IMG/VR virus record: IMGVR_UViG_2718218305_000010 | DNA: 47,284 nucleotides | Source: a virus | Taxonomy: Duplodnaviria; Heunggongvirae; Uroviricota; Caudoviricetes | Direction: 5' to 3' (one strand) | Shown: one piece after another, positions 27,001 to 30,000 of the stretch | Numbering within the stretch: position 1 is the stretch's first letter | Layout of the letters: each line of letters begins with the position of its first letter | Program-made: the position numbers

Positions 27001-30000
27001 TTTTCTCTGCGTGAGAGGGGGCGCGGTGTCCAGGGCGATCGTTTTTTTTCGCCGGATGATCCCCCCCGGGTCTGGTCACAGGCCAGTGATTCCGTCGGCC
27101 CTGAGCGTGCCATCAGGAAGCTCAGGCAACGTCGGATCAGGCATACCACTCGCCGCTTCACTCGCTGACTTCTGGCGATGGCATTCAGTACAGAGGGTCC
27201 AGAGGTTCGTCTCCTCATTACCACCACCGAACTGAAGTGCAATGCGGTGATCGAGTTCACTGTCACAAAGGTCAACCACGCGTCTACAGAGACAACAGTG
27301 TCCGGCATCCCTCCGCCAGATACGACGTTTGAGGGAAACCCGGGCACTGCCACTGACACGACGCTGTTCCCCCCTCAGGACATTTATCCGCCGGGTGTTC
27401 AGAGTTTTGATTCTGCCCGGTAACGTACGAAGCACAGCCATGTAAAATCCTCGCCATATAGCTTGTCACCAGAGGAAAGAAAATGTCATCGAAAAACCGG
27501 CCCCGCAGAACCACAATCCGCAATATCCGTTTCCCCAATCACATGATTGAACAGATCAATATCGCCCTTGAACATAAAGGTTCCGGTAACTTTTCAGCGT
27601 GGGTTATTGAAGCCTGCAGAAGAAGGCTGTCAACAGAGCGTTCGGGTATGAATTACATAATTAAGTAACATGGTGTTCACAGAACACACAGTTACCGGAC
27701 ACATCAGTTTTCCATTCGTCCCCCGGCAGTACAGGCTTCCCGTCTGACGGGATAGCCTGAAAAAACACAGAAAATTATTTGTTATAATTAATATAACTTA
27801 CTCAAAAAAAAGCGACGAGAAAATCAGCATCAACGAGCAATAAGCGCCAATACGTGATAACAAATGGCAGCCATATTTATCTGCAGTATAAGCAATGGAC
27901 AGGATAACCACACCAGAAACCGTCAGCATAAAATCCATTTGAACTTCCCCGGACAAAATCGACTCATCTAAAGATTTACAGCTCTTTTTATTATCAATAT
28001 GTTAAAAGTAAAATAAACAGATGTTCAATAATACGAATACAAAAACGTGCTGAAAATCAATGAATCCATTTCTGTGTTATCAATTAATAGTGATAAACAT
28101 CCGGCTTCTTCCACCATCGCACCGGACCAGCGACCATGAGGGGACAACGCCGCGCTCCGTTAACGCGGTAAACCCCGGTGTGTATCGTTTTTGATTATCC
28201 CCGCACACTCGCGCAGAGGATTCTCCCGGTCGGGCTGCGGTCTCTGTTAATGCAGGAATACGGCGACAATACCGCGCATGAATAATAAGGTCGCTCAACA
28301 CACTGGCTGTAATGCAGCGGATACCATGCGGCATTTAGCGGCATTCATCGTACACTCAACGGTTAGCTCTTCATTCGTGGCATTCACCTGAAAGGTCCTG
28401 GAGTGTAATTGCGTACATTTACCACTGAACGAACCTTCAACAAGAACACGACCACGCTGCAAAATACGGAACGGAATTGTTCCCTGAAAAGGCTTTACGG
28501 TTACCAATAATTTCTTCATGCATTCTCCGAATAACAAAAATACTAGTTAATACACTGAGTGCGGATATATTCCTGAAGCATTCTCAATGCTGCCTGGTCG
28601 CTGATGATTCCGTCTCTGATACCGAGAACGTTTCGTCCAGCAACCGGAGAGAGTTCGACGGCGGCATCATTGCCCACGCCGGAGGTGCCGGTGGCTTCAC
28701 GCACGGTACCGGGGCAGGTGGCGTTGATCCGCAGGCGCTTACGACCAGCGGCAACATCAGCACGCAGAGTTTCATTTTCAGCTCTCGCATCGGCTAATTC
28801 CCTCGAGTATTTTGCATCGAGCGCAGCAACATCACGCTGGCGCACCTGCATGTCAGTAATGGTGGCATTCGCCTGTTCCAGCTCTCTGGCTTTTTTATCG
28901 CGCTGCGCTTTGTAGGTGAGCGCGTTGTCACGGTAATGGTTTGTTGCCAGCCACAGCGCACCACAGCCAACCGCCATGACAATAATCACCACACACAGAA
29001 CACGGTTCATCTCTCTTTCACCCCACCAGTCCCGATAACGTCAGGACTCGCCAGGCGGTGGAAAAGAAAATGGCAACCAGCATGACTAAAAATGAAATGC
29101 CGACAAGTACACAGAGGCTCTTCACCAGCGTTATGAGTTTATCTGATATCATTAGCCACCCCATCAATCCGCCTTTGTTATTTTCCCTTTGCCTGTATCA
29201 GCCAGGACAAAATCAATCAGCATATTCGCTTCATTTACCAGCGTACGGATTTTTGATACATGCGCGGCTTTAACCTGTTTCCACTCATTCAGCCCGGTAG
29301 CAAACACACTGGCAATGTTTTTATCCCGTTTCATGTCAGCACAAGCCTGGTTGAGTTCTTCCATCACGCTCATTTTACGGGGATTAACGACAAAACCCTT
29401 CGTCCAGTACTCGTAAAGAACATCGTCGCACTCTTCCTGATACCGGATGACCTTATCGCGGATTTCGGGTTTTACTTTGTTGGGATTAATGGTTTGTAGC
29501 CAGCCGGCAAGTTTTCGAAGTGGCATGGACACCATATTGCGTTGTTTCCCATCCTCAGCAACCATAACGATTTCCGTTATAGTTGACGCAAAACGCTGTC
29601 TTAACTTAGCCAACTGTGATTGCCAGGCCAGCCCCATCCCCGCAACGACAGGTTTCATGGGAACGTATGGTTCGCCATTATGGTTAACTACATAAAGAGA
29701 GTTGCCGTGAAACGGCACGGCCATCATATTCATCGGTTATTTCCTTTTAGTGATGAACCTTGTCTCACAGGAATCCAGCCCACAGAAAGGCACCGACAGC
29801 CAAACCGGTATCCTCAAGGGTCATCCTGAAAGGTTCTGTGTTGTGAGATGCGCGTGAGATGCGCAGAAATGACAAAGGCATCATTACGGTGCCTGAGTGT
29901 TAAACAACTGTTTTGACTTTATTCACTTACATTTTGCCAATTTGCAGGATTTCGTGTTATCCGTCCATGTAAGCAAACCGCATTTTTCAGCAAAATATTC

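What the first reader, a model, noticed from the sequence alone, without database searches (positions are those of the whole stretch)
27442..28542. Unassigned accessory patch between HNH and Rz: RHH-like gene, 46-aa membrane ORF, AT-rich island and a GC-rich segment
This moron hot-spot holds a 61-aa RHH-like ORF (27483-27668), an untracked 46-aa hydrophobic ORF (27798-27938, minus strand, MDFMLTVSGVVILSIAYTADKYGCHLLSRIGAYCSLMLIFSSLFFE), a very AT-rich stretch and an abrupt GC-rich block (28090-28330) with only weak ORFs. No gene is confidently assigned across about 1 kb.
Basis: seen in the sequence. Interest (0 to 1): 0.4.

Follow-up and report, generated by a model that had tools for sequence, protein, structure and literature searches.

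The report
Mosaic accessory-gene patch in O157 prophage
The 1.1-kb stretch after the lysis genes of this E. coli O157:H7 prophage is an ordinary swap zone for accessory genes: it holds three small real genes and one widely shared non-coding DNA block, and nothing in it is a new kind of system.

Summary
The sequence features are real and lie at the stated coordinates. The claim that no gene can be assigned is wrong. The window is 100% identical to an E. coli O157:H7 prophage (EC4115 and others), and RefSeq annotates three coding sequences in the patch.

1. 27483-27668 (+): a YlcI/YnfO (DUF3950) protein. It belongs to a known family of unknown function, and a ribbon-helix-helix (RHH) fold is plausible but unproven.
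2. 27798-27938 (-): a 46-aa protein with two hydrophobic segments. It sits in an AT-rich island found as one unit in 733 of 5426 complete E. coli genomes. dN/dS is 0.28, the Shine-Dalgarno sequence is conserved, and no homologue exists outside E. coli.
3. It sits where lambda has bor.

The GC-rich segment (28093-28281) is a non-coding block present in 4142 of 5426 E. coli genomes, in lambda itself, and upstream of iss on ColV plasmids. Its edges are constant while its neighbours vary on both sides. I found no convincing RNA structure, conserved reading frame, promoter or terminator in it.

In Sakai prophage Sp10, the slot that holds the AT-rich island here holds instead the recently described sRNA gene hnrS. 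The window has no hnrS.

Verdict: a typical lambdoid accessory-gene ("moron") zone. The one unexplained item is the conserved block.

The parts
27076..27441 (-). HNH endonuclease gene (left boundary; part of an HK97-type packaging module)
   Evidence: Pfam HNH, E 5.3e-6. RefSeq annotates it as 'HNH endonuclease'.
27483..27668 (+). ynfO/ylcI-type gene (61 aa, DUF3950), transcribed against the late operon
   Evidence: Pfam PF13132, 70.7 bits against a cut-off of 25. NCBIfam NF041551, 34.8 bits against a cut-off of 30. phrog_949, E 8e-31. 514 homologues. AlphaFold2 model: extended N-terminus plus two helices, pLDDT 70.
27618..28092 (.). Variable slot: an AT-rich cassette comprising the ynfO C-terminal tail, the convergent 46-aa gene and its upstream region
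   Evidence: Homology to Sakai Sp10 stops at 27617 and resumes at 28100. 27669-28095 occurs as one unit in 733 of 5426 E. coli genomes. 27669-28092 is 36.6% GC.
27722..27749 (.). 28-nt hairpin between the convergent ynfO and 46-aa genes, with no U-tract on either strand
   Evidence: Read directly from the sequence. The terminator scan did not flag it.
27780..27788 (+). TGTTATAAT, a perfect extended -10 motif pointing antisense into the 46-aa ORF (speculative)
   Evidence: Sequence. It is not conserved in the 80%-identical SHP24 copy.
27798..27938 (-). 46-aa gene for a small hydrophobic protein with two hydrophobic segments
   Evidence: RefSeq WP_000347013.1. The diverged SHP24 copy keeps the frame and the GGGGAA Shine-Dalgarno sequence. 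dS 0.51, dN 0.14, dN/dS 0.28. GRAVY 1.11. No homologues outside E. coli.
27939..28092 (-). AT-rich (28.6% GC) leader and promoter region of the 46-aa gene
   Evidence: Promoter-like site TTTTCA-17-TATTAT at 28056->28028 (-). The 35-nt stretch 27984-28018 is 100% identical in a copy that is otherwise 80% identical, and it contains GATAAT.
28093..28281 (.). Conserved non-coding lambdoid block (57.7% GC)
   Evidence: Present in 4142 of 5426 E. coli genomes, in lambda, DLP12, phage 21, 933W-type phages and ColV plasmids. No conserved frame. Fold z-scores +1.29 and -0.16. RNAalifold -8.5 kcal/mol. No Rfam hit.
28295..28519 (-). 74-aa late-strand gene (phrog_2571 family), sitting where lambda has bor
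   Evidence: RefSeq WP_000735655.1. phrog_2571, E 2.8e-28. 66 homologues in E. coli and Salmonella down to 56% identity, most of the same length. AlphaFold2 pLDDT 90.7, all-beta. No significant fold match.
28543..29010 (-). Rz spanin gene, with Rz1 embedded at 28584-28790 (right boundary)
   Evidence: Pfam Phage_lysis, E 1.5e-39. ORF list.

Best explanation
The patch is the accessory-gene zone that follows the lysis genes in a lambdoid prophage of E. coli O157:H7. This prophage has HK97-type packaging genes. The patch consists of four independent modules joined by recombination.

1. **orf74 (late strand, directly after Rz/Rz1).** A 74-aa all-beta protein gene occupies the place where lambda, DLP12 and 933W-type phages carry bor. 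It is presumably read as part of the late transcript (inferred).
2. **The conserved block (about 185 bp).** This non-coding block is the constant piece of the zone. Different cargo sits on each side of it in different phages. It most likely acts as a shared homology patch at which recombination exchanges the flanking cargo, or it is simply an inherited spacer (inferred). I found no evidence that it is a gene or a structured RNA.
3. **The AT-rich cassette.** It has been inserted exactly between the block and ynfO. It carries promoter-like sequence, a conserved Shine-Dalgarno sequence and a 46-aa protein with two hydrophobic segments that is under purifying selection. This is a classical moron, an added gene that could be expressed from the prophage independently of late transcription (expression and membrane location are inferred). 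Its most likely role is a membrane-acting lysogen function such as superinfection exclusion. That role is a guess by analogy with other small prophage membrane proteins.
4. **ynfO.** A DUF3950 protein that is probably a small ribbon-helix-helix DNA binder. It is transcribed against the late operon, next to the packaging genes, as in most lambdoid phages.

In Sakai prophage Sp10 the slot that holds the AT-rich cassette here holds the sRNA gene hnrS instead.
For: - **Identity of the window:** 100% identical to O157:H7 prophages, with three annotated coding sequences in the patch.
- **ynfO:** passes the Pfam and NCBIfam curated cut-offs.
- **Island as a unit:** it lies between ynfO and the block in 733 genomes, and it travels with both lambda-type and HK97-type terminases.
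- **46-aa ORF:** dN/dS 0.28, the Shine-Dalgarno sequence is kept, and the upstream 35 nt are 100% conserved.
- **Promoter:** a promoter-like site lies upstream of the ORF.
- **orf74:** a conserved family with a confident fold prediction.
- **Block, distribution:** present in 76% of complete E. coli genomes with constant edges. 19 left and 15 right flank clusters were found, and 47 combinations among 147 copies.
- **Block, position relative to bor:** the K-12 borD PhoP box lies outside the block.
- **Block, not coding or structured:**
- **hnrS slot:** hnrS maps next to the block in Sakai Sp10 (with PMC13502914).
Against: - No expression data for this prophage were available. The promoter calls are only consensus matches, and their number is what chance would give (3 found, 2.6 expected).
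- No canonical terminator follows the 46-aa gene.
- The 46-aa protein has only one diverged homologue, so the selection estimate rests on 25 substitutions.
- The recombination-anchor role of the block is inferred only from its distribution. The block is no better conserved than third codon positions of the neighbouring bor gene, so it could be a neutral relic.
- A few compensatory base changes and G-U wobbles specific to the + strand leave some room for an RNA role.
Confidence: 0.62

Rival explanations
1. The conserved block encodes, or is part of, a functional structured RNA on the + strand (antisense to the late operon). It could be a cis-regulatory 3'/5' UTR element or a processed sRNA.
For: - The helix GUGUGC/GCACAC is paired in 97% of alignment cells. 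It has U-G wobbles in 12 of 29 sequences, and these pair only on the + strand.
- Some changes on both sides of a pair keep the pairing: pair 31-51 GC->UA in 5 sequences, and pair 136-184 CG->GC in 2.
- The neighbouring slot in Sp10 holds a real sRNA gene, hnrS, on that strand.
Against: - Fold z-scores are +1.29 and -0.59 for the + strand and -0.16 and -0.26 for the - strand.
- The RNAalifold consensus energy is only -8.5 kcal/mol, with a covariation term of about 0.
- Breaking changes are as frequent as compensating ones: 9 and 12 unpaired sequences of 29 at two pairs.
- No promoter or intrinsic terminator was found in the block.
- No Rfam family matches.
- No Hfq-CRAC peak is listed for it in Tree et al. 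2014 Table S2.
Confidence: 0.12
2. The AT-rich island is a type I toxin-antitoxin-like module. The 46-aa hydrophobic peptide would be the toxin. An antisense RNA started from the TGTTATAAT extended -10 motif (27780-27788, +) would be the antitoxin.
For: The peptide is small and very hydrophobic (GRAVY 1.11). A perfect extended -10 motif faces into the 3' end of the ORF. The leader is long and conserved. The cassette is prophage-borne and restricted to E. coli.
Against: The antisense -10 motif is lost in the diverged SHP24 copy, which still keeps the ORF. No convincing terminator for an antisense RNA was found. There are two hydrophobic segments rather than the single helix usual for such toxins. 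There is no match to any known toxin family in Pfam, NCBIfam, PHROGs or PADLOC.
Confidence: 0.12
3. The 46-aa ORF is not a gene, and the AT-rich island is non-coding cargo (for example a regulatory or sRNA element like hnrS).
For: The only homologues are in E. coli and nearly all are almost identical. The same slot holds an sRNA gene in Sp10. A promoter-like site on the + strand (27975-28003) points toward the block.
Against: The frame, start codon and Shine-Dalgarno sequence are kept at 80% DNA identity. There are 12 synonymous against 13 non-synonymous changes (dN/dS 0.28), and the replacements are mostly conservative. The only indel lies in the last codon. There is no hnrS similarity and no terminator on the + strand.
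Confidence: 0.1
4. The GC-rich block codes for a small protein. Candidates are the 35-37-aa ORF on the + strand, or the 81-84-aa ORF on the - strand that some phage records label 'Rz-like spanin'.
For: The + strand frame is open over about 37 codons in 59 of 85 distinct copies. The 84-aa - strand ORF matches phrog_6954 (E 2e-13). ORFs are annotated there in ev243, mEp460, Stx2 II and PA2.
Against: - The - strand ORFs use different frames across the same conserved DNA.
- The + strand ORF has a GTG start with no Shine-Dalgarno sequence.
- It is interrupted by a 1-nt deletion in lambda, a 1-nt insertion in ColV copies and a stop codon in 933W-type copies.
- Variable positions show no third-codon-position bias.
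Confidence: 0.04

Closest known systems
Moron region downstream of the lysis genes of lambdoid phages (lambda Rz-bor-lambdap78-cos; DLP12 rzpD-borD-ybcV-ybcW-ylcI-nohD; Qin ynfO-ydfO-gnsB region)
   Same: The position is the same, between Rz and the packaging genes. ynfO/ylcI lies antisense next to the terminase. The same conserved block is present. The cargo is variable, and some of it differs from its surroundings in composition (the island is 36.6% GC against 49.9% for the window).
   Different: There is no bor and no ybcV here. orf74 takes the bor position on the opposite strand. A 46-aa membrane-protein cassette sits between the block and ynfO.
hnrS (EcOnc10/11/12), the 66-nt Hfq-dependent prophage sRNA that represses hha (Poudyal et al., PLoS Pathog 2026, PMC13502914)
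   Same: It occupies exactly the same slot in Sakai Sp10, between the ynfO-like gene and the left edge of the conserved block. It is AT-rich cargo antisense to the late operon.
   Different: The window has no hnrS. The 15-nt mazF-complementary sequence and the terminator are absent, and BLAST finds no similarity. The cargo here is a protein-coding cassette on the opposite strand.
YlcI/YnfO family (DUF3950, PF13132)
   Same: The window protein passes both curated family cut-offs and shares the invariant N-terminal 50 residues and the genomic position.
   Different: Only the C-terminal tail differs, and it is variable across the family. The family has no tested function.
Small prophage-encoded membrane proteins such as the HK97 gp15 superinfection-exclusion moron (recalled from memory, not tested here)
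   Same: A short protein with two hydrophobic segments, carried on a moron-like cassette of a lambdoid or HK97-like prophage.
   Different: No sequence similarity was detected to any family. The location in the genome is different. The function is untested.

Membership tests
YlcI/YnfO (DUF3950) | Score above the curated family thresholds (Pfam PF13132, NCBIfam NF041551) | tested here: met
   70.7 bits against a cut-off of 25. 34.8 bits against a cut-off of 30.
YlcI/YnfO (DUF3950) | Position next to the packaging genes, transcribed against the late operon | tested here: met
   The window gene is on the + strand, next to the HNH and terminase genes on the - strand. The arrangement is the same in DLP12, Qin, SHP24 and O104:H4.
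Ribbon-helix-helix (Arc/MetJ/CopG) DNA-binding fold | An N-terminal beta-strand followed by two helices, similar to solved RHH proteins | tested here: inconclusive
   The model has an extended N-terminus plus helices 19-32 and 34-60, pLDDT 70. The Foldseek hits include RHH and RHH-like proteins (ParD2, Arc, TCP domain), but only at E 3-9. hhalign aligns with Arc in the correct register, E 0.018 but probability 2.6%. There is no match to CopG.
Ribbon-helix-helix (Arc/MetJ/CopG) DNA-binding fold | Dimerisation and operator binding | not testable with these tools
   Needs biochemistry.
Moron (self-contained added gene in a phage operon, sensu Juhala/Hendrix 2000) | Present or absent between otherwise related phages, at a precise junction | tested here: met
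   The island is absent in DLP12-like, ev243 and Sp10 copies, where ylcI or hnrS abuts the block. It is present as a unit in 733 genomes.
Moron (self-contained added gene in a phage operon, sensu Juhala/Hendrix 2000) | Base composition different from the surroundings | tested here: met
   36.6% GC (28.6% in the leader) against 49.9% for the window.
Moron (self-contained added gene in a phage operon, sensu Juhala/Hendrix 2000) | Own promoter and terminator | tested here: inconclusive
   There is a promoter-like site and a 100%-conserved upstream stretch. The count of promoter-like sites equals the chance expectation. Only a weak terminator-like site was found, at 27687-27673.
hnrS sRNA | 66-nt RNA with the mazF-complementary 15-mer, the CUUCU seed against the hha ribosome-binding site, and an intrinsic terminator | tested here: not met
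   CTACCCAATCAGTAC and the terminator are present in Sp10 (L169 5981-5995) and absent from the window. The best window match to hnrS is 10-17 nt, at chance E-values.
bor/iss lipoprotein gene | An ORF homologous to Bor between Rz and the conserved block | tested here: not met
   tblastn with BorD finds Bor in 31 of 108 contexts but none in contexts of the window type (Rz plus orf74). No Pfam hit.
Type I toxin-antitoxin | A small hydrophobic toxin plus an overlapping antisense RNA gene | tested here: inconclusive
   The peptide is hydrophobic. The antisense extended -10 motif is present here but not conserved in the diverged copy. No antisense terminator was found.
phrog_2571 (phage protein family of unknown function) | Significant profile match | tested here: met
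   E 2.8e-28. Residues 1-73 match profile positions 100-172 of 291.
Any Rfam RNA family | Covariance-model match | tested here: not met
   Only chance-level hits (E >= 0.7) in 26800-29200.

The most novel reading that the evidence does not exclude
The 185-bp conserved block is a functional cis-acting element of lambdoid phages and not a relic. One possibility is a dedicated homology anchor that defines two cargo-exchange slots after the lysis genes. Another is a Rho-dependent insulator between the convergent late and lysogenic transcripts. The AT-rich cassette beside it would then be one of several interchangeable lysogen-fitness payloads (hnrS, ybcV, a TonB-like gene, the 46-aa membrane protein) that plug into that anchor.
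Probability: 0.22. Interest if true: 0.55.

Novelty: new member of a known kind. Interest (0 to 1): 0.3.

Why it matters
- The zone between the lysis and packaging genes of lambdoid prophages is where factors that affect virulence or host fitness, such as bor/iss and the sRNA hnrS, are carried.
- Showing that a 46-aa membrane-protein cassette fills the hnrS slot in about 13% of complete E. coli genomes, including O157:H7 and O104:H4 strains, gives a concrete candidate lysogen-expressed factor to test.
- A non-coding block shared by three quarters of E. coli genomes, and by lambda itself, has no assigned role. It would be cheap to test by deletion in lambda.
- Otherwise the patch is ordinary mosaic prophage DNA, and the genes in it were already annotated as hypothetical proteins.

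Tried and rejected
1. **Mapping EcOnc11 to the block.** I first placed the Hfq-CRAC peak EcOnc11 (Tree 2014) on the invariant core of the block. This was an artefact. The published coordinates refer to NC_002695.1, and the held record NC_002695.2 is shifted by about +140 nt. I calibrated the shift with AgvB. After correction, and using the 15-nt mazF complement, EcOnc11/HnrS lies beside the block, not in it.
2. **Known sRNAs.** Pas sRNAs, AgvB and AsxR lie near pR'/Q, not here. Rfam gave nothing.
3. **The block as the bor promoter.** In K-12 the PhoP box (TGTTTAgggttTGTTTA) lies between the block and the borD start codon, outside the block. The block also persists without bor.
4. **The block as a structured RNA.** Single-sequence folds, RNAalifold and hand-drawn helices gave weak or mixed support.
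5. **The block under special purifying selection.** It is less conserved than third codon positions of bor.
6. **Scan of one genome per species for the block core.** It found only Escherichia, plus lambda control-DNA contamination in unrelated assemblies.
7. **Fold searches for the 74-aa protein.** No significant match in PDB or BFVD.
8. **Exhaustive HMMER search for the 46-aa protein.** Only its own cluster and repetitive spurious hits.
9. **Anti-phage defence profiles (PADLOC).** No hits.
10. **Literature on ynfO, ylcI and DUF3950.** No functional study found.
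Full report
**Origin of the window and check of the observation**

Window 27400-28600 is 100% identical to prophage DNA in many E. coli O157:H7 genomes (EC4115, TW14359, TR01 and others). It is 99.5% identical to the record 'Enterobacteria phage PPyecE_EH1910'. The late genes run on the minus strand.

RefSeq annotates the following genes:
- HNH endonuclease, 27076-27441 (-)
- a YlcI/YnfO family protein, 27483-27668 (+)
- a 46-aa hypothetical protein, 27798-27938 (-)
- a 74-aa hypothetical protein, 28295-28519 (-)
- Rz, 28543-29010 (-)

The composition jump is real: 27939-28092 is 28.6% GC, 28093-28281 is 57.7% GC, and the window average is 49.9%.

**ynfO (27483-27668, +)**

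The 61-aa protein passes the curated cut-offs of Pfam DUF3950 (70.7 bits against 25) and NCBIfam YlcI_YnfO_N (34.8 against 30). It also matches phrog_949. The search found 514 homologues. Those I aligned share an almost invariant N-terminal 50 residues and a variable tail. As in K-12 DLP12 (ylcI) and Qin (ynfO), the gene lies next to the packaging genes and is transcribed against the late operon.

The 'RHH-like' label is plausible but unproven.
- The AlphaFold2 model (pLDDT 70) has an extended N-terminus followed by two helices.
- The Foldseek hits include ribbon-helix-helix or related proteins (ParD2, Arc, TCP domain), but only at E 3-9.
- hhalign aligns the strand and first helix with Arc in the correct register, at low probability.
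- No functional study of the family was found.

**The AT-rich island and the 46-aa ORF**

The stretch 27669-28095 occurs in 733 of 5426 complete E. coli genomes. It covers at least 80% of the query in 732 of them, at 97-100% identity. In the copies I examined it lies between a ynfO-type gene and the GC-rich block, in prophages with lambda-type (O104:H4, SHP24) or HK97-type (this window) terminases.

One copy, in strain SHP24, is only 80.6% identical, so it allows a test for coding:
- The ORF keeps its start codon, its frame and the GGGGAA Shine-Dalgarno sequence.
- The 13 amino-acid changes are mostly conservative.
- dS is 0.51 and dN is 0.14, giving dN/dS 0.28.

A 35-nt stretch upstream (27984-28018) is 100% identical between these two diverged copies and contains GATAAT. 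The consensus scan also finds TTTTCA-17-TATTAT at 28056->28028. The number of such sites in the region is no more than chance, however.

The peptide is very hydrophobic (GRAVY 1.11) and has two hydrophobic segments. It has no family match in Pfam, PHROGs, NCBIfam or PADLOC. It has no homologue outside E. coli, even in an exhaustive HMMER search of 1.84 billion representatives.

I conclude that this is a real, orphan, moron-type gene for a small protein that is probably membrane-located. Its function is unknown. Superinfection exclusion or another membrane-acting lysogen function is my best guess by analogy. A perfect extended -10 motif (TGTTATAAT, 27780-27788, +) faces antisense into the ORF and suggested a type I toxin-antitoxin arrangement. 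The motif is not conserved in the diverged copy.

**The GC-rich block (28093-28281)**

This is a discrete, widely shared piece of lambdoid DNA, found in 4142 of 5426 E. coli genomes with a median of 2 copies per genome. It occurs in the following places:
- lambda (about 46860-47050, between lambdap78 and bor)
- K-12 DLP12 (between ybcV and borD)
- phage 21, mEp460, ev243 and 933W-type Stx phages
- ColV plasmids, upstream of iss
- Sakai Sp10, directly after Rz

A scan of one genome per species found it only in Escherichia, apart from lambda control-DNA contamination.

Its edges are constant while its neighbours change. Among 147 copies there are 19 left and 15 right flank clusters, in 47 combinations. 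By gene content across 108 distinct contexts:
- The left slot holds ynfO directly, a ybcV-like gene, a TonB-like gene, the 46-aa island, hnrS, or unrelated DNA.
- The right slot holds Rz directly, bor plus Rz, orf74 plus Rz, a Rha-like gene, or other DNA.

The block is not coding.
- Annotated minus-strand ORFs (81-84 aa, sometimes labelled 'Rz-like spanin', phrog_6954) read the same conserved DNA in different frames.
- The 35-37-aa plus-strand ORF has no Shine-Dalgarno sequence and is broken by indels or stop codons in lambda, ColV and 933W-type copies.

It is not convincingly a structured RNA.
- Fold z-scores lie between -0.59 and +1.29.
- The RNAalifold consensus is -8.5 kcal/mol with no covariation term.
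- In hand-drawn helices, compensating changes are matched by as many breaking ones.
- One 6-bp helix does show plus-strand-specific G-U wobbles.

No promoter, terminator or Rfam family was found. It is not the PhoP-dependent bor promoter, because the PhoP box of K-12 borD lies between the block and the start codon. It is no better conserved than bor third codon positions. The evidence therefore fits a recombination anchor or an inherited spacer, and does not establish a function.

**Relation to the sRNA HnrS**

Tree et al. 2014 listed abundant Hfq-bound orphan RNAs EcOnc10/11/12 (PMC4104026, Table S2). These have since been characterised as HnrS, a 66-nt sRNA that represses hha (PMC13502914).

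I first mapped EcOnc11 onto the block core. That was an artefact of a roughly +140-nt shift between NC_002695.1 and NC_002695.2, which I calibrated with AgvB. The published property that HnrS is perfectly complementary to the last 15 nt of mazF places it elsewhere. CTACCCAATCAGTAC lies at L169 5981-5995. It is followed by a strong intrinsic terminator that directly abuts the left edge of the block.

So in Sakai Sp10, hnrS fills the slot between the ynfO-like gene and the block. In the window the same slot is filled by the 46-aa island. The window has no hnrS.

**The 74-aa gene (28295-28519, -)**

It starts 24 nt after Rz on the late strand and occupies the place of bor. It matches phrog_2571 (E 2.8e-28). 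It has 66 homologues in E. coli and Salmonella down to 56% identity, most of the same length. Its predicted structure is a confident all-beta fold (pLDDT 90.7), with no significant match in PDB or BFVD. In one homologue (P0015) it is fused behind a DUF1737 domain. Its function is unknown.

**Verdict**

The patch is a typical lambdoid accessory-gene zone assembled from four modules. Three genes can be assigned with confidence, and all three are already annotated. One of them belongs to a named family (YlcI/YnfO). bor is absent and has been replaced, not degraded. The only unexplained item is the conserved non-coding block. The most useful new observation is that the 46-aa cassette and hnrS are alternative cargo in the same slot.

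Noticed in passing
window 26861-26982: Five copies of GTTAACAT, in both orientations, lie between the HNH gene and the terminase small-subunit gene. The window has 6 in all against 1.35 expected by chance. They are probably cos or small-terminase binding repeats.
   Followed up: partly
window 27780-27788 (+): A perfect extended -10 motif, TGTTATAAT, points antisense into the 46-aa ORF. It is not conserved in the 80%-identical SHP24 copy.
   Followed up: partly
window 27722-27749: A strong 28-nt hairpin (CAGGCTTCCCGTCTGACGGGATAGCCTG) lies between the convergent ynfO and 46-aa genes. It has no U-tract after it on either strand.
   Followed up: no
L169 (Sakai Sp10) 5947-6014, minus strand: I inferred the position of the hnrS sRNA gene from the 15-nt mazF complement and its terminator. 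Published EcOnc coordinates (NC_002695.1) are shifted by about +140 nt in NC_002695.2, which can cause peaks to be mis-mapped.
   Followed up: yes
block copies in phage records PA2 and phi315; window ORF 28080-28334 (-): ORFs called across the conserved non-coding block carry the label 'Rz-like spanin' (phrog_6954), although their frames are not conserved. This is probably a propagated annotation artefact.
   Followed up: partly
L013-L046 (genome-contig scan): Contigs of about 48.4 kb and about 3.5 kb in assemblies of unrelated bacteria (Pseudomonas, Cohnella, Flavobacterium and others) carry the lambda version of the block. This looks like lambda control-DNA contamination in public assemblies.
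   Followed up: no
window 28295-28519 (-); protein P0015: In one homologue the 74-aa protein is fused behind a DUF1737 domain (125 aa). This suggests a DUF1737 gene precedes it in other phages.
   Followed up: no
window 27975-28003 (+): A promoter-like site (TTTACA-17-TATGTT) overlaps the 100%-conserved stretch of the island and points toward the conserved block. This is the same orientation as hnrS in Sp10, but no terminator follows it.
   Followed up: no
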